A DNA stretch of 61,840 bases, filler included, from Stramenopiles sp. TOSAG23-3 (taxonomy: Eukaryota): the NCBI GenBank assembly GCA_900128585.1. It is 13 parts of 13 records of this genome, joined end to end, with 100 filler letters (N's around TTAATTAATTAA, not from the genome) between each part and the next. Parts side by side here need not be neighbours in the genome. Positions count along the whole stretch, not along the records: positions 47,690 to 52,343 come from LT643745.1; 12 more parts are not named here. The stretch is one strand, 5' to 3'. Position 1 is the stretch's first letter, and every line of letters begins with the position of its first letter. The position numbers and the translations under genes were made by a program. The notes under the pieces are model-generated. The model did no database searches. It saw only the letters and a program-made list of their open reading frames with translations, and was not told the origin of the DNA. Shown here one piece after another: positions 21,013-59,575 of this stretch.

Positions 21013-21260
21013 NNNNNNNNNNNNNNNNNNNNNNNNNNNNNNNNNNNNNNNNNNNNNNNNNNNNNNNNNNNNNNNNNNNNNNNNNNNNNNNNNNNNNNNN
21101 NNNNNNNNNNNNNNNNNNNNNNNNNNNNNNNNNNNNNNNNNNNNNNNNNNNNNNNNNNNNNNNNNNNNNNNNNNNNNNNNNNNNNNNNNNNNNNNNNNNN
21201 NNNNNNNNNNNNNNNNNNNNNNNNNNNNNNNNNNNNNNNNNNNNNNNNNNNNNNNNNNNN
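21013..21260. other. Internal scaffold gap (N-run with no linker)
   Basis: N-run following a G-run, lacking TTAATTAATTAA. Confidence 0.9.
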
Positions 21261-21261
21261 N

Positions 21262-45900: not shown

Positions 45901-47589
45901 AGGTGATGTTTTGGCGCGGCACCGCCGTTCCGAGACTGATGCTTCTCCGCAAAGTTCAGGATTTCTTGGTGCATTGTTGGGACGGCACTGTACCATGTTG
46001 GCGGGGGCGACTGCCGAAGTGCGTCGAAGAAGCCCGCACCGTCTGTGAAGCCTGTTGTCGCATAGACGGAAGCGCCAGATAGCGCTGTAACGAGCACGTT
46101 GACAGAAATTCCATGAATATGAAACAGCGGCATAATGTTGATGCAGACATCGTCAGGCGTTAGGCCGAGCGTCGACATTATGCACAGCCCGCCAGTGCTG
46201 ATGTTGCCGTGCGTCAGCGGCACAACTTTGGGCTTGTTCGTGGTTCCGCTGGTGTGAAGCACCAGAGCAACATCTTCGCGCTTGGGCCACACTCGCCCGG
46301 TGCTCAGCGGCAAAAGTTGCTTGGAGCCCTTCCGCCATTGCAAAGTGAACAGCCCGACATCATCCACGGAGGGGAACATCTCTATGATCGGCAAATTGCC
46401 GCAGGATGCCGCCACGGTCAGAATGTCGTCGCTGTCGGGCAAACCCGCAAACACCACCACAGCCGTGGCCGGAAGGTCCACAAACTCGAATTTCAGCGCG
46501 GCCCGCGTCAGTTTTGTGCTGAGGGGTGCATAGGTGCATTGAAGCGACATTCCCATAAAGCAGACCGCGGCCTCAGGCCCGTTGGGGATGACAACACAGA
46601 GTCGGTCGCCCTGCCCAATGCCAAAGTCGTGGAGATTGAGGTCTTCGCCGATGAACGACTTGAGCCGAGCATAGTCGAGCGGTCGGCGCCTGCTATTAAC
46701 CTCCCTCAAGAAAACCCGGTCGGTGTCAGGCAAGAGGTCGTAATGCGATTGCCAAGTTTGCTTCCATGCTTCATGCGCAGTCAGCTGATCCGACGGCACC
46801 GCCAACACTTTTGGCACTTTTCCCAGCGTATCGCCATCAGCGGCCCGGCCCTCGATGCCCTGTGGCACGGTCTCGCGCCGAGCCAGGTCTACTGCACGCT
46901 TTGTGATGCAGTCAACGACATGTTTGGCGTCCTCGGCAATACCGCACAGAATTGAGGATTTCCACTTGTACATCCAATGTAAGCTCAGGAAGAACAGGCC
47001 TGGATGGTTCGTGGCCGCACCACGTTCCTGGATTGGGTAGCCGCGGGCACCGTACAGATCCGACAAATCAACGAGCGCCTGGTAGTTGAGCTTGTACCCT
47101 GTGCACCAAATGATGGTGGTGATGCCCTCGCCCGTCAGCGACAGCTCCTGAATCGGGTCCGTCTCGCATTTGGGCAGTGGCACGTACGGCTCCAGCTCAA
47201 GGGGCTCCAGGTCCTGCAACTCCGGGTCATCGGCATGCTGCTGCACGTATTGCTCGATTTCCAGCTTCATGCGCATCACATTGGCCTCGATCTTCGTCAT
47301 GTTGAGGGGCAGCTTTGCGCCCTCGAGCTGAAGAATGTCACCGTCCTTCACGGCCATAGCCTTGCCCAGTAGTGTGAGGTCGTGCTTGTTGCAGAGCTCG
47401 CGGAGACGCACGTCGCGCTGCGGGCACTGGCTGGGATTTGGCCCAAACCTGCTGGCCTGCTGGGCTGCTGGCGACAGATCGGCTATCTTGGTGTCGTACT
47501 TGCCGGTCTTGTAGAGCCACCAATTGAAATCCTTGCCTCGTACCCTCCGCGGGACGCGCAGGGAACGTGAGCCGACACAAGCGAACACG
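42935..47589 (-). CDS. Multidomain NRPS (partial at both ends): FMO-like oxidoreductase / adenylation / carrier / heterocyclization (Cy) / adenylation
   Basis: FMO C-half ~46900-47589 (PRRVRGKD..WW, IIWCTGY, PGLFFL). A1 ~45170-46700 (LHTSGTT, YAMTE, TGD, GRFKEIINRGGEKI, PKG.TGK). T ~44810-45010 (LSFDSL). Cy ~43430-44720 (LLPMQLLYWTGR, RHGALR, DLLVADARA, PQLP, PFVFAS, TPQVWID). A2 begins ~43330 (LMHEAIL...TPDATAV...LAGCPYVPI...PPERI). Confidence 0.9.
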
Positions 47590-47963
47590 NNNNNNNNNNN
47601 NNNNNNNNNNNNNNNNNNNNNNNNNNNNNNNNNTTAATTAATTAANNNNNNNNNNNNNNNNNNNNNNNNNNNNNNNNNNNNNNNNNNNNTTGTACTGCTT
47701 TTCTTGATTGGGCATCTTTGCCATCGTAGGAAGGTACCGGTGCACCCAGAGACCATAGCGTGAGAGAGAGAGAGTGTTCCTTGGGAAAATAATTAAAGAT
47801 TAAGGCGAAAGGCGAGGTCACAAGTGACATGAATAAGCTGTACACAGGCGGTCAAAGTCGTGGTTTGGCACAGGCTCCATGCCGGTGCGGAAAGAATCTT
47901 TATGTACTTATTTATAATTTTAATGTGTTAATTTCACGCATGCAACGATTATCCCCCCTTTTT

Positions 47964-48800
47964 TCATCCAAACAAGTCGACCCGTCGCAACTCTCGCAAT
48001 TTCCATTCGAGGCGTTCCTGCTCAGGATTCAGCCCGTCCGTGTCGTCCGCTTCCGCTTTCTCGGCATGTTCGTTCCCCGCCAATTCGCGGGCGTTCTCTT
48101 TCTCCACCCGGGCAGCTTCCCGTGCCACGACCGCATCACGAACCATCTTTCGGCTCTCTTGTGCGCGTTCTTCGTGCGTTCGCGAGGTGGCCCCGGAGCC
48201 TGCAGAAGGGATCGTCGCGGGCCGTTCCGGTTTCCGTTTTTCACGGTCGGATTTTGACAAAAATAGTATTTTCCGCGGTGCCGTTTCGTCCTCCGAGGAG
48301 GACGACGATTCGTCCTCGCTTTCCTCCGACGAGAGCGCTGGCTTGCTTGCTTTGAACGTAGCCGTAGAACGACCCGTGGAAGGGGCGGCTGGGACAGGGG
48401 TACGCTCCGTGTTCGCAACAGAAAGGGCCTGTACATTTACCCGGGTCGAGGGCGGTGCAGCGGTCGACGGTTGGCTGGAAATCCTTGCAATCAGCGCTTT
48501 TCGCTTCGCAATGTGCTCGGCTTCGTCGTCGTCACTCGAACTACTGTCGTCTGAGTTGCTATCCTCCGAACTACTATCATCGCCCGGTGCTATTATTTGG
48601 GCCTGGATGGCCCGTCTCCTTGGTGGAGACTCGGGCGCCGCCGGTGCAGGCACATCTTTATGTACAGTGTCGTGCACGGCCACGGCTACGGCTACGGACG
48701 GGGGCTCCCCCGTTCCTTTCAACGCATTCCCAGTGTTATCTGAAGACGCACCCCGTCCTCCCCCCCATCCTGGCTTTTTCCCTTTACGATACACCGACAT
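47964..48800 (-). CDS. MFAP1: Microfibrillar-associated protein 1 (spliceosomal B-complex factor)-like, apparently C-terminally truncated
   Basis: YRKGKKPGW near the N-terminus, Ser/Glu/Asp tracts, ILFLSKSDR, and DDTDGLNPEQERLEWKLRELRR. The usual C-terminal block (KYYH...TKYTHL) is absent. Confidence 0.7.
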   Translation of the reverse strand: MSVYRKGKKPGWGGGRGASSDNTGNALKGTGEPPSVAVAVAVHDTVHKDVPAPAAPESPPRRRAIQAQIIAPGDDSSSEDSNSDDSSSSDDDEAEHIAKRKALIARISSQPSTAAPPSTRVNVQALSVANTERTPVPAAPSTGRSTATFKASKPALSSEESEDESSSSSEDETAPRKILFLSKSDREKRKPERPATIPSAGSGATSRTHEERAQESRKMVRDAVVAREAARVEKENARELAGNEHAEKAEADDTDGLNPEQERLEWKLRELRRVDLFG

Positions 48801-49886
48801 GGGTATTAGGTCAGTACCTACGTGATCCGAGAGGCGCAGGGCGTAGCTGTTGAAAAGAGGGGGGGCTTTCATCGAAATTATGAAAGACCGTGGCGGACTT
48901 TGGATCGGGAACTGGGACGTACCTGGGAACGGTTTTCCCTGGGCTCCTGGAGGAATAATTCTTTTTTATTATTGTATTATTAGTTGGGTGGACGGACACG
49001 ACAAAGAGGAGAATAAGGATGAGGGTAAAGGTTATGGTTACAAATGTACTTAAAAATAGGGTTATTCAGGGATGAATGGTGTGATGGGTATTTTGGATGC
49101 TATATGATAGTATTAGTGTAATGGAAGCGTTAAATACAATATTCTTCAGTTTTGAGTTCATGATAATGGTATGCTTATGTAATCGTGTATATAATATGGT
49201 TATACCATGATGATAAAATTTAAAATTTGAATTAATAGGTAAATAGTATTGGTGTTGTTGCTATTCCTTGTATTTCACTTTCATCAGTCAAAAAACAAAA
49301 AAAGAAACGTTATAAATAAAGTTGTATTCTATTTATTGTAAATACCTATTATTATATACTGTATTTATAATAAAAATGAACTATTTGAGTTTTAATAAGA
49401 ATACAATTTAAATACAACCTCCCTTCCATCTTCAACAATTATTCCTTTTCCTTTCCTTTCTCTTCCTTCATCTCTATGTTGTGTTCATATAAATAATAAT
49501 AAAAATAATAAAATTGAATCCTTCTTCTTCCTTTCTTCCTTTTCCTTTTCCTCTTCCTTTCTTCCTTTTCCTTTCTTTCTTCCTTTTCCTTTCTTCCCTC
49601 TTTCTTCCCTTTCCTTTCTTCCCTCTTTCTTCCCTTTCCTTTCTTCCCTCTTTCTTCCTTTCACCGCCATCAGCGCCACGTAAAAAACCACACCAGACAC
49701 TTTCAACTACTACTCTTTCTTATTTCTCATTATTATGTATAGGAATAATGGAATGAAAGACGAGAACGAAGACGAATGATAGATGTGGGCAGAAGATTTA
49801 TATATATATTTAAATATAGTTACCCGTTCTGTTCCATTCTCTCTGTTATTTTTGAACCAGCAGTAGCAGCGACAGCAATAGCAGCC

Positions 49887-51260
49887 ATGCCAGCCACACG
49901 ACGTTCGTCCCGACGGTCCTCGTCGAAAGCGACCACCTCGCCGGTGAAAAAGAAGAAAGCTCCGGCGAAGAAGACGACGAAAGCGAAGGCGCGAGCAAAG
50001 ACCCCGGCAAAGAAGAAGAAGAAGAAGGCGAAAGAACCCGCCCCAGAGGCCGACGATGCGCCGAACTTCGTCGTCGACAAGATCCTCGAGGTGCGCAAGA
50101 ACAAACGGAAGAACGAGTACTTGGTGTCCTGGAAAGGGTACCCGGAAAGCGACAACACGTGGGAGCTGGGCATTGACATGAAGAAGGACGGCCATGGCGA
50201 AGCGATCAAGGCCTTCCGTCGAGAGCAAAGGGCACTGAAGGCTTCCCCGGCGCCCGCGAAGGCGGCAACCCCGGTGAAGGCGACCACTCCGGCGAAGGCG
50301 ACGCCCGCGAAGGCGACCACCCCCGCGGCAACGGCCGTCGAGGAGATCGCTGAGGAGGCCGCCGAGTCCCCCAACGCGGGGGTCAACACCCCGGGCTCGT
50401 TTGCCTTCTACTGGGCGGTCATGATCGGCATCATCGTGTCGTACACCCTTATCGAATTACTCCTGGAGAACGCGCACAAGGCCCCCTTGCTGAGCGGGGA
50501 CAACACCAAGTGGGTGTCGTTTTTGGCGGCCGCCAAGCACTGGATCGCAGTCCTGCCCCCGGTCATTAGCGTGGTCGTCCTGGTCTCGCACCCTGGGTCC
50601 ACCGCACCGTTCCCAAAGTACCTCTCCGTGGGGCTTGCGTGGATTGCGACCAACAATTTTCTGAACCACTTTACGGGAATGCTGGGGCCGTCGGACCGCG
50701 CGGACATGGCGGAACACTCGGCCATGCTCCTGACCATCAACAAACTCATCGCCTACCTGTTCCTGTCGAACGGGTTCAACGGCCCGCGAGGGAAGAACCG
50801 CCGGGGTCCCCCGTCGAGCTACGTGTGGGGGGCCGTTTGGTTCTTCCTTCTTGCCTGGGAATTCCTCAACCGCATGGAGCTGGGGCTCTTCTCACCGGAC
50901 ATTCAGTTAGGGATGCAAAACATTGCAGAGCTCCCGGCCAAGTTCATGGCGATCAAGCCACTGACCGCCCAGGGATTGCTCTTCTTGAACGTTTTGGAAG
51001 TCTGCACCCTCTACTACGCTGTATGGCGGGCGTCCGCCTGCATCGGCCACGGCTGCTCCGTGTACTCGCACGATGCCGTTCCCCAGCACGTCGGGGTAGT
51101 TGCCATGCTTTTTCTAGTGTTTGCCAACATGTCCCCGATCTTGCTCGATGGGGTTGAGCATGCGTGGTTCACCAAGTTCCTGCCGATAGTATTGAGGTGG
51201 GTCGGCGGCGCGCTCCTTACGACCGTTGGCCTGTGGGATGCCGAGACGTTTTACGAGTAA
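49887..51260 (+). CDS. Basic N-terminus, chromodomain, PAK(A)T repeats and a ~8-helix membrane domain
   Basis: NFVVDKILEVRKNKRKNEYLVSWKGYPESDNTWE is a chromodomain (50064-50220). About eight hydrophobic segments in the C-terminal ~290 aa. Likely ATG at 49887. Confidence 0.85.
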   Translation: MPATRRSSRRSSSKATTSPVKKKKAPAKKTTKAKARAKTPAKKKKKKAKEPAPEADDAPNFVVDKILEVRKNKRKNEYLVSWKGYPESDNTWELGIDMKKDGHGEAIKAFRREQRALKASPAPAKAATPVKATTPAKATPAKATTPAATAVEEIAEEAAESPNAGVNTPGSFAFYWAVMIGIIVSYTLIELLLENAHKAPLLSGDNTKWVSFLAAAKHWIAVLPPVISVVVLVSHPGSTAPFPKYLSVGLAWIATNNFLNHFTGMLGPSDRADMAEHSAMLLTINKLIAYLFLSNGFNGPRGKNRRGPPSSYVWGAVWFFLLAWEFLNRMELGLFSPDIQLGMQNIAELPAKFMAIKPLTAQGLLFLNVLEVCTLYYAVWRASACIGHGCSVYSHDAVPQHVGVVAMLFLVFANMSPILLDGVEHAWFTKFLPIVLRWVGGALLTTVGLWDAETFYE

Positions 51261-51429
51261 GTAATACGGACAGAGAACAGAGGAGGCACCTCTAGCGGGT
51301 AGGGGATGGCCCGACGCAACCTTTTAAGAGTCACAATAAATTATTTGCGGCAAAAAAATGTAGTAATAAAACTTCTTAGTATTTGTACCCTGCACAAAAG
51401 ACGCTGGGCGGACGTGGGCCTCTCCCATT

Positions 51430-52343
51430 TCAGTAAATGTTCCGCAGCAGAAGGTTCTCTTTCCTCAACTCTTGGTTCTCCTTGGCCAACGTTTCTATTT
51501 TCGAAGCATTGTCGTGCAGCATCGCTTGCATGTCGTTCATTTGCATCTGAAACTGGCGCAAAATTTCTACATGAAGGTCCCGTATGCTCCCTTGCACGCT
51601 CACTTTTACATCGTCCAGCGCTTCCTCCAGCATTTGCTTTATTTCAGACTTTTCCACGCCCGGGGCCGTGGCAAAGGCGTCGGGGGCCGTGGCGCTCGGC
51701 TGCCGGGGCCAAACGGAGGTATCCGGCGACGCTAGCGGCGCAGCATTGCGGGCCTCGCGTCCTGCGTCCTGGCCTCGCGCCCTGGCCTCACGTTCTGCGC
51801 GGGGAGCGGGGAGGCTCGACACGGTTTGCCCCGGACCCCGGGTCCCAACATCCTTCGGCTTGGTGCTGTCTGCCTTCGTTGCTTTCGTCTCAGCTTTGGC
51901 CGGGGCGGGGGCGCGCTTCGGCTCAGGCACCCGTTCCGCCACCGCTTCCTCCACGGCCTTCTTCTTCTGCCGTCGAGTCAGAGCCTCCATCCTTACCTTC
52001 TCCACGCTTTGTGCGGGCGACAGGAGCGCAACGTGCTTCGTGCGCAGCATAGAATTGACTTCCTCCTCCTTCGGCAGGTCGCCCCCGTGGGCCTGCCCCG
52101 CCCCCGCAGCAGGCCCTTCGTCGTTCGCAGGCGTCTTCCTCCGCTGCGGCGTTACCACCCGGCGCGCAGGGGTCGCGGGCTTTCCATGGGGGGGCGGCTC
52201 CTGACGGGCCTGGCGGCTTGGGTTCATCATCGCCGTCGCCGGCTGCGCCTGGATGCAAGATACCTGGACAGGCGCGTGCACGTCCACGTCCGTCAACGGT
52301 ATGGCCCTCGCCCCGCTTCCCATTCGTCGCGTATCGTACACCA
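51430..52343 (-). CDS. NEDD1: NEDD1/GCP-WD C-terminal region (5' partial)
   Basis: C-terminal MLEEALDDVKVSVQGSIRDLHVEILRQFQMQMNDM...ENQELRKEN matches the NEDD1 gamma-tubulin-binding helix. Confidence 0.75.
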
Positions 52344-53313
52344 NNNNNNNNNNNNNNNNNNNNNNNNNNNNNNNNNNNNNNNNNNNNTTAATTAATTAAN
52401 NNNNNNNNNNNNNNNNNNNNNNNNNNNNNNNNNNNNNNNNNNNTTCTTCTTCTTCTTCTTCTTCTTTCTTCTTCTTCTTCTTCTTCTTCTTCTTTCTTCT
52501 TCTTCTTCTTCTTCTTCTTCTTTTCTTCTTCTTCTTCTTCTTTTTTTTCTTTTTTTTCTTCTTCTTCTTCTTCTTCTTCTTCTTCTTCTTCTTCTTCTTC
52601 TTCTTCTTTCTTTTCCCCTAAAAAACTCCTATATAACTTACATAAAGTCTAACAATAATATATATTTCACATAGTTGTTATACATAAAACATAGATAATG
52701 TACTGTATAGTCAACCTGTCCATCGTACTTCGGCCAAAGCCTCCTCATATTTATCCTTGTATCCTTTATTCTAGACTATGATACTACGTAGTCTAGTAAT
52801 AAAGAAGAAGAAGAAAGAATTATTTGAATTTAAATTAAAAATACTATTTTATATAGTAATAGCATTGGTTTACTTAAAGTATTTAATAAATGTACAAACA
52901 CTTTGATTGTATTTTGCTGTTATTGTTTTACTTGGTTATAATTATTGTTTTGTTTTATTATTTAGATGTGATGTTGTTTCAATGTTGTTTCAATGTTGTT
53001 GTTGTAGTAGTAGTAAGTAAAAATAATAATAATTTTATTATTATTATTATAAAAGAAGAAGAAAGAATCAAATACAAAGTAATAATCTCTATAAAAGTTT
53101 AAAATGTAACTGTAGGAAGTATTCAATTAACAAAACTAAGAAGTAAAACAAATCGAAGAATGAATCGGCAAAAGAAAGGTAACATAGGTAGAAAGGGATT
53201 GATTAATTCTAATCAATATCAATTTTTAGAGTTTGGATTTTTGAAACCTTTTGGGGATTGATCGATAGGGATACAGACGTACAGGCTTGAGTTCTGGGGA
53301 CTTTTTTTAGAAT

Positions 53314-57196: not shown

Positions 57197-59575
57197 GAAG
57201 AAATGCATAAAGAAAACCAGGCCCTTGTGCAGCCGGAGATCCAGAAAGTCACTGACTCGATAGCCTCCCTGAAGGAAGATCTGGCCAGCACCGAGCGTGC
57301 GTACGAGGCCGAGAAGAAGCGCAGGGCCGACATCAGCGCCCGGATCGACCAGGTCCGGGAGGAGCAGGCCGAGCTGGAAGACGAGGAGGCCGAGAAGACC
57401 TCGCTGCTGGCAAAGCTGCAGAACGACCCGGAGCGCATAAGAAAGCAAGCGGCTGTCGTCGAAAAGGCTGTCGTCAACTTGGACGCGGAGCTTCTGCGGT
57501 TGGAGGAGAAGATTAAACAGTGCGACACGGAGTTGGACCACCAGAAGATGAAGCGCAAGGAGGTAGAGGCGGTCTCCAACGATTTGGGAAGAAAGCTGGA
57601 GCTGCACCGCAAAACCATCGAGCAGCGAGAGAAGGAGGTGGACACCGTGCGAAAGACCCTGGACTACGAAAGGCACCAGCACCAAAAGTTATTAGAACAG
57701 AAGGTTGAGCTGGAGCTGAAGGACAAGGAGGCCCGCGAAAACCTGCGCCACGCGATGGAGCAGACCACCATGGCGAACAAGGAGTTCGACTCGCTGAAGC
57801 GAAAGATCAAAAAGAAGCAAGGCATGCTCGACAGCGCCCTTGCCCTGCTCCCTGGCTTAGAGACCCAGCGGCACGACGCCGAAAGCGAGCTGGCGACGTA
57901 CAAGGCGGAGTGCTCAAAGCTGAAGAAGACGCTGAAGGAAATGAAGCAAGAGGTCGACGTCTCAATCGCAACATTCCTCCAGAAGGAAGTGTTGGAGAAG
58001 GACAAGAAGGAGCAGCTGGAGCAGCAGCTCAAGGTCATCAAAGGCTTGGAAGTTCAAATTACGAAATGGGCGGCAGAGGAGCACCGGCAGAACAAGACCA
58101 TCCAAATCCTTAGTGCGCAGCGCGAAATAAAGGCGAGGGAGGCGTCCAAGGCCGCGGCGCTCGAGAAGGAGACGAGGGAAGAAGTGAACGTCAAAGAGTT
58201 GATCATTGTCGATTTAGGAAAAAAATTTAGCGAGACGAACAACCGTTTGAAGGAGTTTAGTGCCCTGTACGACGTTGTGAAGAACGAGCGCAACAAGTAC
58301 GTCAATTTGATCCAGGCCAGCAGCCAGGCGCTCGCAGAGATGAAGGAGAAGATCAAAATACTGCAGAACGAGGTGGAAATTCTTAGAAATGAAAGCTTGG
58401 CAAAGGACCGGGCGTTGCAGAAGGAGCGCTTGTCCCACCAGACAGCGCAGATAGCGCGCGACCAGTTGCGCTTAGACACCAACAAGAACGTCGCGGTGTA
58501 TCGCAAGAAACAGCAAATAGTAGAGCAGCAGATCGTTGAGATCGACAAGCTCAATTCCATCATCAACGGGATGGAAAAGGAAATGTTGAACTTGAAGAAG
58601 GATTACGAACACGCCGTGGAGGCTAGAAACTACACCGGCGTGCAGCTCATCGACCGGAACGACGAGCTTTGCATTTTGTACGAAAAGGCGAACATCCAGG
58701 AGGAAACCCTGAAGCGCGGCGAAATTGGTTTGCGAAAAGTCGAGGAGGAGATTCGCATGGTCAAGCTTCAGGTCGCAGAAGTTCAGCGACAGATCGAGGT
58801 GACCAGGAAGCACATTCCCAACCTCCCAGAGTACGCCGCGCACATTGTAGCGTTGAAAGAACAGTTGAAAAAGGAGGAAGAGGTGACAGATTCCTTGTGT
58901 AGGAATTTAGAGAACCCGGACAACACCGGAAGATGGCGTGCCCTCGGGGGAGAGGATCCGGACGTAGAAACCTTGAACGCGAAGATCCAAGTCTTGGAAG
59001 AGCGCTTGAACGATAAGAAAGAGGCGCTGTTAGAAAAGGAGCTTGTTTTGGAAGAGGTCACTGCCCTCAGTGACAAGCTTCGGGCCCAAGCCTCGGACGG
59101 CCGCGAGGATACACTGAACCTTGCCAAGCGCGTGAACGAGTTCCAGGCCAGGATCAAGGAAGTAACTCGCAAAATGATGGCAACCGTGTCCGAGCTGAGT
59201 ATGTACCAGGCCACGGCGATGAAGCTTCAGCAGACGAAGCACGACCGAGAGATGGAGCTTGAAGATGCCCAATGGCGCCTGGAACAAGGCCAAGCGCCCA
59301 CCGAAGCGGCCGAGCACGCATGGTACAGGAAGGAGAGAGAACGTTTGCGCCGCGCCGAATCTGCAGCATCGCAGAACGGTCCACAACGCATGCAAGACGG
59401 GATGGTCCCCACTGCCGTCGTCCGCACGACCGCGGAGCCTCGTCCAAATGCGTACATTCCAGACGAAATCGGGATCCCCAAACCGTACGGTGCGCTTGCC
59501 CCTTTCAAACCAATGCAACAGGGAGCCTCGATGCGACACATCAGAAAGCCGAAGCCACGGGAGATCGAAATCTAA
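57197..59575 (+). CDS. CCDC146: Coiled-coil domain-containing protein 146 (MBO2), 5' partial
   Basis: LYDVVKNERNKYVNLIQ, GVQLIDRNDELCILYEK, MATVSELSM, and C-terminal TTAEPRPNAYIP...PKPYGALAPFKP...MRHIRKP...EIEI. Confidence 0.92.
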   Translation, partial: EEMHKENQALVQPEIQKVTDSIASLKEDLASTERAYEAEKKRRADISARIDQVREEQAELEDEEAEKTSLLAKLQNDPERIRKQAAVVEKAVVNLDAELLRLEEKIKQCDTELDHQKMKRKEVEAVSNDLGRKLELHRKTIEQREKEVDTVRKTLDYERHQHQKLLEQKVELELKDKEARENLRHAMEQTTMANKEFDSLKRKIKKKQGMLDSALALLPGLETQRHDAESELATYKAECSKLKKTLKEMKQEVDVSIATFLQKEVLEKDKKEQLEQQLKVIKGLEVQITKWAAEEHRQNKTIQILSAQREIKAREASKAAALEKETREEVNVKELIIVDLGKKFSETNNRLKEFSALYDVVKNERNKYVNLIQASSQALAEMKEKIKILQNEVEILRNESLAKDRALQKERLSHQTAQIARDQLRLDTNKNVAVYRKKQQIVEQQIVEIDKLNSIINGMEKEMLNLKKDYEHAVEARNYTGVQLIDRNDELCILYEKANIQEETLKRGEIGLRKVEEEIRMVKLQVAEVQRQIEVTRKHIPNLPEYAAHIVALKEQLKKEEEVTDSLCRNLENPDNTGRWRALGGEDPDVETLNAKIQVLEERLNDKKEALLEKELVLEEVTALSDKLRAQASDGREDTLNLAKRVNEFQARIKEVTRKMMATVSELSMYQATAMKLQQTKHDREMELEDAQWRLEQGQAPTEAAEHAWYRKERERLRRAESAASQNGPQRMQDGMVPTAVVRTTAEPRPNAYIPDEIGIPKPYGALAPFKPMQQGASMRHIRKPKPREIEI

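What the first reader, a model, noticed from the sequence alone, without database searches (positions are those of the whole stretch)
49887..51260. Chromodomain fused to a polytopic membrane domain: candidate LBR-analogous heterochromatin anchor
Seen: a Lys/Arg/Ser-rich N-terminus (NLS-like, histone-H1-like), a chromodomain with all three aromatic-cage positions (F in NFVV, W and Y in SWKGY), a linker with S/T-P-x-K CDK-type sites (SPVK, TPAK, TPVK), then about eight hydrophobic helices. Established: such cages bind methyl-lysine (H3K9me/H3K27me). Metazoan LBR tethers heterochromatin with a Tudor + RS region + 8-TM sterol reductase. Inference: an independently evolved inner-nuclear-membrane reader that binds methylated chromatin directly. 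The TM part loosely resembles a degenerate YhhN/TMEM86 fold (weak).
Basis: partly seen in the sequence, partly recalled or inferred. Interest (0 to 1): 0.72.

Follow-up and report, generated by a model that had tools for sequence, protein, structure and literature searches.

The report
Chromodomain fused to orphan membrane domain
A marine protist gene joins a histone-mark-reading chromodomain and a DNA-binding-type basic tail to an eight-helix membrane domain of no known family, so it may pin silent chromatin directly to a membrane, probably the nuclear envelope.

Summary
Window 49887..51260 (+) is one uninterrupted 457-aa ORF. It has a Lys-rich tail, an HP1-type chromodomain (Pfam E 1.6e-13, full aromatic cage F61/W82/Y85), an S/T-P-x-K linker and eight long hydrophobic helices.

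The fusion is not an assembly artefact. Every relative found with an intact N-terminus (7 of 7, 28-68% identical over the full length) has the same chromodomain-plus-membrane layout. One relative is labelled MAST-4, an uncultured marine stramenopile. Twelve RNA runs hold 83-91% of the stretch.

My best reading (about 0.45) is a membrane-embedded methyl-lysine reader that tethers chromatin, analogous to LBR and even more to C. elegans CEC-4. Localisation, topology and ligand are untested, and the positive-inside rule does not support the topology. Read-level transcript evidence could not be obtained.

The parts
49776..49886 (+). In-frame upstream extension; not coding (5' leader)
   Evidence: GC3 is 0.27 against 0.81 in the ORF. 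It is not conserved: the orthologues start at MP(S/A)TR, and the extension of P0002 is unrelated.
49887..50066 (+). Basic Lys/Arg/Ser/Thr/Pro-rich tail (residues 1-60). Resembles an NLS and a histone H1 tail in composition; holds SPVK and TPAK sites
   Evidence: Translation and composition. A basic tail is present in all 7 full-length relatives, but in P0008 it lies after the chromodomain.
50067..50222 (+). HP1-type chromodomain (residues 61-112); aromatic cage F61, W82, Y85
   Evidence: Pfam PF00385 E 1.6e-13. PDB matches HP1alpha, HP1 and Swi6. Cage invariant in 7 of 7. Chromo found in 7 of 8 homologues scanned; the eighth is cut at its 5' end.
50223..50393 (+). Low-complexity linker (residues 113-169): three TP(V/A)K sites, then an acidic patch (EEIAEEAAE) just before the first helix
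   Evidence: Translation and motif count. An acidic cluster before helix 1 can be seen in all seven relatives whose sequence before helix 1 is available, in the sequences.
50394..50471 (+). Helix 1 (residues 170-195), the most hydrophobic; lies outside the 7-helix bundle that aligns to 7TM folds
   Evidence: AlphaFold helix 6-31 of the TM part. Hydropathy core 175-193 scores 1.92. Most VIA rows start at model residue about 47.
50502..50588 (+). Helix 2 (residues 206-234)
50586..50621 (+). Most conserved loop, SHPGSTAPFPKY (residues 234-245), on the same side as the N-terminus
   Evidence: Mean column identity 0.83; 10 of 12 columns invariant in the four closer members.
50607..50684 (+). Helix 3 (residues 241-266), weakly hydrophobic
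50688..50774 (+). Helix 4 (residues 268-296), ending in the conserved NGF motif
50817..50882 (+). Helix 5 (residues 311-332)
50922..50951 (+). Short helix (residues 346-355) in the long, poorly conserved loop 5
50961..51038 (+). Helix 6 (residues 359-384)
51039..51089 (+). Conserved loop CIGHGCSVYSHDAVPQH (residues 385-401), on the N-terminal side. Cys/His pattern in the main clade, lost in P0008 and P0055
   Evidence: Alignments. Mean column identity 0.73.
51069..51143 (+). Helix 7 (residues 395-419)
51162..51254 (+). Helix 8 (residues 426-456)
51258..51260 (+). Stop codon TAA. It overlaps a GTAAGT splice-donor-like string, but the C-termini of the orthologues end at the same place
   Evidence: Sequence. 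The C-terminal ends align.

Best explanation
I read this as an integral membrane protein of the nuclear envelope (inner nuclear membrane, continuous with the ER) of a MAST-4-like marine stramenopile.

Its roughly 170-residue N-terminal part would face the nucleoplasm. There the HP1-type chromodomain would bind a methylated lysine on a histone tail, most likely H3K9me and possibly H3K27me. The adjacent Lys-rich tail would bind DNA non-specifically and supply nuclear-localisation signals.

The eight-helix C-terminal domain would hold the complex in the membrane, so that marked chromatin is pinned directly to the envelope. Phosphorylation of the S/T-P-x-K sites could release chromatin at division.

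**Shown:** one gene, a conserved fusion, a complete aromatic cage, an eight-helix domain of no known family, and presence in RNA libraries.

**Inferred:** the membrane concerned, the orientation, the ligand, the tethering role and the phospho-regulation.
For: **One coding unit**
- The ORF is uninterrupted.
- GC3 is 0.72-0.87 in all four parts, against 0.27 upstream.

**The fusion is conserved**
- Every relative found carries it. The searches were a word-index search (5 hits, all with PF00385), a full HMMER scan of 1.84 billion representatives (5 hits), a profile search (4 hits) and a search with the most distant member.
- Chromo is above the Pfam cut-off in 7 of 8 homologues scanned. The eighth, P0055, sits on a 930-base contig cut at its 5' end.
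- This includes P0008, which is 33% identical over the membrane part (28-29% in the alignments).
- Three independent genomic loci also carry it as one frame.

- The cage residues F61, W82 and Y85 and the NTWE block are invariant in 7 of 7.
- The nearest solved relatives are HP1alpha, HP1 and Swi6.

**The basic tail is not a targeting peptide**
- A basic S/T-P-rich tail always accompanies the chromodomain, but it moves. In P0008 it follows the chromodomain and the N-terminus is acidic.
- This argues for a chromatin, DNA or NLS role.

**The conserved face is on the chromodomain side**
- The three loops on the N-terminal side are more conserved (mean column identity 0.83, 0.57, 0.73) than the four on the other side (0.47, 0.38, 0.42, 0.45).

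**The membrane part shows no family-wide catalytic signature**
- It has no enzyme or transporter family match.
- Its only columns invariant across all 48 rows are L, P, W and F. That fits an anchor or scaffold.

**Precedents exist**
- CEC-4 is an inner-nuclear-membrane chromodomain protein that anchors H3K9me chromatin (passages in PMC4783997 and PMC5788517).
- LBR has a Tudor domain, an RS region and eight membrane segments, and CDK1 phosphorylation releases chromatin (passages in PMC5617974).

**Expression**
- Of 24 runs listed, 20 hold 83-96% of the sampled words. Twelve of those are on record as RNA, poly-A libraries among them, and they span 13 studies.
Against: - No localisation, topology or binding data exist.
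- The positive-inside rule does not support the chromodomain-side-in topology. K+R in the loops on the N-terminal side against the other side is 6/7, 4/7, 3/7, 4/8 and 8/6 in five members. The stretch just before helix 1 is acidic.
- Orientation therefore rests on two things. One is the implausibility of moving a folded, +21-charged, 170-residue domain with no signal peptide across a membrane. The other is the loop conservation.
- Three of the eight helices are only weakly hydrophobic, so the number of spans is not certain.
- The chromodomain has a three-residue insertion relative to HP1alpha in the C-terminal segment, which I recall clamps the histone peptide (alignment). The ligand could therefore differ.
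- Whether this organism makes H3K9me or H3K27me could not be checked, because no genome is held. For stramenopiles in general I saw only a search listing on a diatom (PMC4504042).
Confidence: 0.45

Rival explanations
1. The membrane domain is the working part. It would be a 7TM receptor-, transporter- or enzyme-like module preceded by one extra helix. The chromodomain and basic tail would then be its output or its addressing device. For example, a lumenal or lipid signal sensed in the envelope could change chromatin binding, or chromatin binding could regulate a membrane activity, much as LBR couples a sterol reductase to chromatin.
For: - Foldseek gives probabilities of 0.9-0.98 for class C receptors, although E is 0.13 or worse.
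- The membrane part is as conserved as the chromodomain. Its loops carry conserved His, Cys, Lys and Tyr motifs in the main clade.
- Oomycete stramenopiles are known for GPCRs fused to accessory domains (passages in PMC6033456).
Against: - No sequence family matches at E<=10 in 5 of 5 members.
- P0055 has a sub-threshold 7tm_3 hit (21 bits against a cut-off of 33.5), but the helices are in the wrong register and it has no PDB sequence hit.
- The conserved polar motifs are lost in P0008 and P0055.
- GPCR-bigrams carry catalytic domains at the C-terminus, and the word 'chromo' does not occur in that paper.
Confidence: 0.2
2. It is a membrane-tethered chromatin factor held in reserve. The protein would sit in the ER or another membrane. 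On a signal, the disordered linker would be cut, releasing the chromodomain and basic tail to enter the nucleus, as happens with membrane-bound transcription factors such as SREBP and ATF6 (recalled, not from a call).
For: - A roughly 55-residue low-complexity linker lies between the chromodomain and helix 1.
- NLS-like lysine runs lie in the part that would be released.
- The architecture is conserved.
Against: - No protease site or cleavage motif is conserved in the linker, which is the least alignable part.
- The conserved loops on the same side as the chromodomain are not explained.
- This is pure inference.
Confidence: 0.1
3. The chromodomain is a protein-protein module for a non-histone partner on a cytoplasmic membrane face, as the chromodomains of cpSRP43 bind Alb3 and cpSRP54 motifs. 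The basic tail would bind RNA, the cytoskeleton or acidic lipids, so the protein would have nothing to do with chromatin.
For: - Chromodomains with non-histone ligands exist. I saw the cpSRP43 paper PMC4660199 only as a search listing and the start of its abstract.
- There is a three-residue insertion in the ligand-clamping segment.
- Localisation is unknown.
Against: - The closest relatives by sequence are HP1alpha, HP1 and Swi6, with all three cage residues invariant.
- A cage, an H1-like basic tail and S/T-P-x-K sites together are typical of chromatin proteins (recalled knowledge).
- MAST-4 are heterotrophs (abstract start of PMC13724720), so the plastid cpSRP context does not apply.
Confidence: 0.15
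4. It is an artefact: a chimeric assembly, or two genes read as one.
For: - The window comes from a draft assembly with many N runs.
- The read-laying run failed, so there is no read-level proof of one transcript.
Against: - One open frame with uniform GC3.
- The same fusion occurs in seven divergent relatives and in contigs from many independent data sets. Cluster sizes are 9, 12, 14, 1 and 38.
- Three separate genomic loci carry it.
- Contigs of 1439-1457 bases hold whole 472-476-aa ORFs.
- Twenty runs from 13 studies hold the stretch.
Confidence: 0.03

Closest known systems
[quoted passage not shown]
   Same: - An HP1-type chromodomain without a chromoshadow domain, joined to a C-terminal part that places it at the nuclear envelope.
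- CEC-4 binds H3K9me1/2/3 and anchors heterochromatin directly (passages in PMC4783997 and PMC5788517).
   Different: - The reviews I read describe the CEC-4 C-terminal part only as lacking homology to known chromatin proteins. The word 'transmembrane' does not occur in PMC5788517.
- Here the anchor is an eight-helix polytopic domain.
- CEC-4 is described as worm-specific.
- CEC-4 function is shown; this protein's is not.
Metazoan lamin B receptor (LBR)
   Same: - A nucleoplasmic N-terminal methyl-lysine reader, a basic phosphorylatable region and eight membrane segments.
- It tethers heterochromatin, and CDK1 and SRPK1 phosphorylation releases chromatin (passages in PMC5617974).
   Different: - The LBR reader is a Tudor domain that binds H4K20me2, not a chromodomain.
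- The LBR membrane part is an ERG4/ERG24 sterol reductase. Here neither Tudor nor ERG4/ERG24 matches.
- Any likeness is therefore convergent.
HP1 / Swi6 family
   Same: Closest chromodomain by sequence (E 2e-7 to 1e-6), with a full aromatic cage.
   Different: - No chromoshadow domain or hinge.
- A three-residue insertion before the C-terminal helix.
- Fused to a membrane domain.
7TM bundles (class C GPCR transmembrane domains, microbial rhodopsins, PAQR/alkaline ceramidase)
   Different: - No sequence relation.
- The scores lie within the range the tool warns is common for helical bundles.
- There is an extra N-terminal helix.
- No conserved receptor or hydrolase motifs across the family.

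Membership tests
Chromodomain (Pfam PF00385) | Profile match above the curated cut-off | tested here: met
   50.8 bits against a cut-off of 25.1, E 1.6e-13, profile positions 1-52 of 53. Seven of the 8 homologues scanned score 40.7-49.3 bits.
Chromodomain (Pfam PF00385) | Three aromatic cage residues at the HP1 positions | tested here: met
   F61, W82 and Y85 align to Y/F, W and F/Y of HP1alpha and Drosophila HP1 (alignments). They are invariant in 7 of 7. Which HP1 residues form the cage is recalled knowledge.
Chromodomain (Pfam PF00385) | Binds methyl-lysine peptides | not testable with these tools
   Needs a peptide array or ITC.
HP1 family | Chromoshadow domain C-terminal of the chromodomain | tested here: not met
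   Chromo is the only Pfam family at E<=1.
Lamin B receptor | N-terminal Tudor domain and C-terminal ERG4/ERG24 sterol reductase | tested here: not met
   No such Pfam match at E<=1 for the whole protein, nor at E<=10 for the membrane part in 5 of 5 members.
Lamin B receptor | Inner-nuclear-membrane localisation and heterochromatin tethering | not testable with these tools
   Needs microscopy and genetics.
CEC-4-type perinuclear anchor | HP1-like chromodomain without chromoshadow, plus an envelope-targeting C-terminal part | tested here: inconclusive
   The chromodomain part is met. Localisation is not testable.
   No member matched it in Pfam at E<=10. The window's own membrane part matched no family at all; two other members each had one weak, unrelated hit (TMEM208_SND2 at 0.072, PhoLip_ATPase_C at 0.097).
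   Not among the 50 rows shown by VIA-align or the Foldseek rows. Absence from a list does not exclude it.
Class C GPCR transmembrane domain (Pfam 7tm_3, PF00003) | Profile match above the cut-off | tested here: not met
   Only P0055 matches, with 21 bits against a cut-off of 33.5, no passing stretch, and helices out of register. None of the 5 other members matches at E<=10.
Class C GPCR transmembrane domain (Pfam 7tm_3, PF00003) | Shared 7TM fold | tested here: inconclusive
PAQR / alkaline ceramidase hydrolases | 7TM fold with a conserved His/Asp/Ser metal site | tested here: inconclusive

The most novel reading that the evidence does not exclude
The eight-helix domain is a receptor-like 7TM module, preceded by one extra helix, that resides in the inner nuclear membrane. 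It would sense a lumenal or lipid cue and pass that signal through its conserved nucleoplasmic loops to the attached chromodomain and basic tail. Heterochromatin would then be attached to or released from the envelope on signal. That would make it a 'chromatin-coupled receptor', a direct membrane-to-histone-mark signalling device with no described counterpart.
Probability: 0.1. Interest if true: 0.88.

Novelty: new variant of a known kind. Interest (0 to 1): 0.62.

Why it matters
How heterochromatin is fastened to the nuclear envelope is understood in animals (LBR, lamins, CEC-4) and in yeasts. It is barely understood in the rest of eukaryotic diversity.

This protein carries the histone-mark reader, a DNA-binding-type tail and a polytopic membrane anchor in one chain. 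It would be the simplest tether conceivable. It would also be a third independent invention of the same solution, this time in an abundant group of ocean bacterivores that cannot be cultured.

The prediction can be tested with a short recombinant domain and a GFP fusion in a model host.

The membrane domain is a family with no known relatives, and it was found only in fusion with chromodomains. That makes it a clean case for asking what an orphan membrane fold contributes.

Tried and rejected
**First structure model**
- The first AlphaFold job on the membrane part used an 8-row alignment and was unusable (pLDDT 48.6).
- Its Foldseek hits were meaningless: 14-3-3 proteins at TM about 0.2.
- A 48-row alignment then gave pLDDT 80.4.

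**Searches on the membrane part that found nothing**
- ESM Atlas: no usable hit and no model held.
- Profile of the membrane part against PDB sequences: only four MglA chains at E 0.49-0.8, which is noise.
- P0055 against PDB sequences: nothing at E<=10.

**Internal structure and topology**
- Internal duplication of the membrane part: hhalign of the two halves gave probability 0.1%. Rejected.
- Positive-inside rule as a topology test: undecided to slightly contrary.

**Data that could not be obtained**
- Whole-genome search for paralogues, HP1 or histone methyltransferases: no genome is held.

**Context searches that added nothing**
- Earlier findings of this scan: nothing relevant by sequence, place or words.
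- Taxon label for the window itself: 5 of 10 neighbouring ORFs are in the collection, but none carries an organism name. Only the P0002 cluster has a MAST-4 label.

**Alternative readings rejected**
- Mitochondrial or plastid targeting peptide for the N-terminus: rejected, because P0008 has an acidic N-terminus and its basic tail follows the chromodomain.
- Retrotransposon (chromovirus) origin of the chromodomain: no integrase or other element nearby. The neighbours are an MFAP1-like gene and an unnamed gene.

**Literature**
- Four full-text searches found no paper describing a chromodomain fused to a polytopic membrane domain. Most subscription-journal papers are not in that library, and supplements were closed.
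Full report
**1. What is there**

Window 49887..51260 (+) is a single open reading frame of 457 codons.

The frame stays open upstream to an ATG at 49776. That 111-base extension has GC 0.37 and GC3 0.27, against GC 0.61 and GC3 0.81 for the ORF. It is not shared by orthologues, which all begin MP(S/A)TR or MA at the position of 49887.

The four parts of the ORF have similar GC3, as expected of one coding unit:
- basic tail: 0.72
- chromodomain: 0.85
- linker: 0.87
- membrane part: 0.82

The stop codon overlaps a GTAAGT string that looks like a splice donor. The orthologues end at the same residue, give or take one, so the stop is real.

**2. The soluble part**

Residues 1-169 hold 40 K+R and 19 D+E.

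Pfam finds one family at E<=1. It is Chromo (PF00385), residues 61-112, E 1.6e-13, 50.8 bits against a cut-off of 25.1. The nearest solved sequences are HP1alpha (E 2e-7), Drosophila HP1 (5e-7) and Swi6 (1e-6).

In those alignments F61, W82 and Y85 fall on the three positions I recall as the HP1 aromatic cage. The block E87-x-D89-N-T-W-E93 matches HP1's E-x-E-N-T-W-E.

After W92-E93 the family has a three-residue insertion relative to HP1alpha, with a conserved D-G-H-G. This lies in the segment that, from memory, clamps the histone peptide, so ligand specificity cannot be read off. There is no chromoshadow domain.

Five S/T-P-x-K sites are present. Shuffles give a mean of 0.58, and 1 of 2000 shuffles reached five. 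The six homologues have 1, 4, 1, 3, 4 and 3. The motif is enriched in five of the seven sequences and at chance in two, and its positions are not conserved.

An acidic cluster lies just before the first helix in all seven relatives whose sequence before helix 1 is available (sequences).

**3. The membrane part**

Hydropathy gives eight segments. Three of them (helices 3-5) are weak.

The first AlphaFold run used 8 rows and failed (pLDDT 48.6). A 48-row alignment (A5) gave pLDDT 80.4 and pTM 0.83, with eight long helices and one short helix.

No known family matches by sequence:
- Pfam at E<=10 gives nothing for the window's protein. Two of the five members each have a single weak, unrelated hit.
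- A profile against all PDB sequences gives only noise.
- ESM Atlas gives nothing.

No known fold matches convincingly:
- Foldseek against the PDB has no match at E<=0.001. The best is E 0.13, with TM-scores of 0.3-0.46, mostly GPCRs.
- In most VIA rows helices 2-8 are aligned to the seven helices of the target.

I therefore call the fold "a seven-helix up-down bundle plus one N-terminal helix" and leave homology open.

The two halves are not a duplication (hhalign probability 0.1%).

**4. Relatives**

This is a very small family.
- A full HMMER scan of 1.84 billion cluster representatives with the membrane part found 5 proteins at E<=0.001.
- The word-indexed search of 5.8 billion found 5, including the query.
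- A profile search found 4.
- A search with the most distant member found one more, P0055 (E 3e-3). hhalign confirmed it as a relative (probability 91%, E 1e-6).
- A scan of metagenome contigs found 3 loci, all belonging to clusters already seen.

Every member whose N-terminus is present has the chromodomain in front of the membrane part. Chromo is above the cut-off in 7 of 8 scanned. The eighth, P0055, sits on a 930-base contig cut at its 5' end, so it is uninformative.

The most distant full-length member is P0008. It is 33% identical in the scan, and 28-29% in the alignments. It keeps the cage and the membrane part. Its N-terminus is acidic and its basic S/T-P-rich tail lies after the chromodomain.

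No relative of the membrane part was found without a chromodomain. The length windows of the indexed searches, and the fact that I did not use the 'longer' and 'shorter' options, leave some room.

One member of the 53%-identical cluster is named "Stramenopile-MAST_4" by EukProt. The window also encodes a CFAP58-like flagellar protein, which fits a flagellate.

**5. Is the fusion real and expressed?**

Evidence for a real fusion:
- one frame with uniform codon bias
- conservation of the fusion across 28-68% full-length identity
- three genomic loci with the same single frame
- contigs of 1439-1457 bases that hold whole 472-476-aa ORFs

Of 24 runs listed, 20 hold 83-96% of the sampled words of window 49700-51450. 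Twelve of those 20 are on record as RNA, several are poly-A or oligo-dT libraries, and 13 studies are represented.

I could not lay reads. Continuity of one transcript is therefore inferred, not seen.

**6. Orientation**

With eight spans, both ends lie on the same side.

The three loops on the N-terminal side are the best conserved:
- SHPGSTAPFPKY: 0.83
- FNGPRG...: 0.57
- CIGHGCSVYSHDAVPQ: 0.73

The four loops on the other side score 0.47, 0.38, 0.42 and 0.45. This points to a functional face next to the chromodomain.

Against this, K+R counts in the loops do not favour that side being cytosolic or nucleoplasmic. The counts are 6/7, 4/7, 3/7, 4/8 and 8/6, and the flank before helix 1 is acidic.

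The argument that the N-terminus stays on the cytosolic or nucleoplasmic side is that a folded domain of about 170 residues, net charge +14 to +27 and without a signal peptide is unlikely to be translocated. That is inference from established knowledge, not a test.

**7. Mechanism**

My best reading, at about 0.45, is a membrane-embedded reader of methylated histone lysine that fastens chromatin to the nuclear envelope.
- The basic tail would add DNA affinity and nuclear-import signals.
- The S/T-P-x-K sites would offer cell-cycle release.

Two precedents exist:
[quoted passage not shown] It binds H3K9me1/2/3, anchors heterochromatin, and finds the nuclear rim even in yeast (passages in PMC4783997 and PMC5788517).
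- LBR has a Tudor domain, an RS region and eight membrane segments. CDK1 phosphorylation accompanies release from chromatin (passages in PMC5617974).

The present protein is homologous to neither beyond the chromodomain.

The rivals are:
- The membrane domain is a receptor-, transporter- or enzyme-like module and the chromodomain is its output or address (0.2).
- It is a membrane-tethered chromatin factor released by cleavage (0.1).
- It is a non-chromatin role for the chromodomain (0.15).
- It is an artefact (0.03).

Repressive H3K9 and H3K27 methylation is reported in at least one stramenopile, a diatom. I saw this only as a search listing and the start of an abstract (PMC4504042). Whether MAST-4 has these marks could not be checked.

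**8. Novelty**

Four full-text searches found no description of a chromodomain fused to a polytopic membrane domain. The library lacks most subscription journals, and supplements were closed.

The oomycete "GPCR-bigram" paper lists catalytic accessory domains only, and the word 'chromo' does not occur in it.

I rate this a new variant of a known kind, namely a reader-plus-anchor chromatin tether, built from an orphan membrane family. Interest is 0.62.
- In its favour: the architecture is solid and the idea is cheaply testable.
- Against it: the function is wholly inferred, and the organisms are uncultured.

Noticed in passing
window 4688-57196, pairs of 44-N runs about every 4,760 bases (for example 47590-47633 and 47646-47689; 52344-52387 and 52400-52443), plus 21013-21261: N runs recur at strikingly regular spacing through the whole window. 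This looks like masking or scaffolding by rule rather than biology. None touches the gene studied.
   Followed up: partly
window 49515-49680: A long pyrimidine-rich (TTCC/CTTT-type) low-complexity tract lies about 200-370 bases upstream of the start codon, in a 33% GC intergenic region. This is the tract that made the read-laying run fail.
   Followed up: no
window 42879-47588 (-): A 1569-aa ORF has an NRPS-like adenylation, carrier and condensation domain order (AMP-binding E 1e-60, PP-binding, Condensation E 7e-23). That is unusual for a small heterotrophic flagellate genome.
   Followed up: no
window 47964-48872 (-) and 57203-59575 (+): The neighbours are an MFAP1-like pre-mRNA processing protein and a CFAP58-like flagellar coiled-coil protein. 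Both are ordinary eukaryotic genes and fit a flagellate host.
   Followed up: partly
window 51256-51263: The stop codon TAA lies inside GAGTAAGT, a near-consensus splice donor. Orthologue C-termini end at the same place, so it is probably not used.
   Followed up: yes
P0008 (472 aa) and P0055 (298 aa, 5'-cut contig): A divergent sub-branch of the family has swapped the order of basic tail and chromodomain. It has also lost the Cys/His loop motif (CxGHxC...H) that the main clade keeps.
   Followed up: partly
window 51039-51089 (residues 385-401): A C-x2-H-x-C-x4-H-x5-H pattern sits in a conserved loop on the chromodomain side. It could be a small metal site.
   Followed up: no
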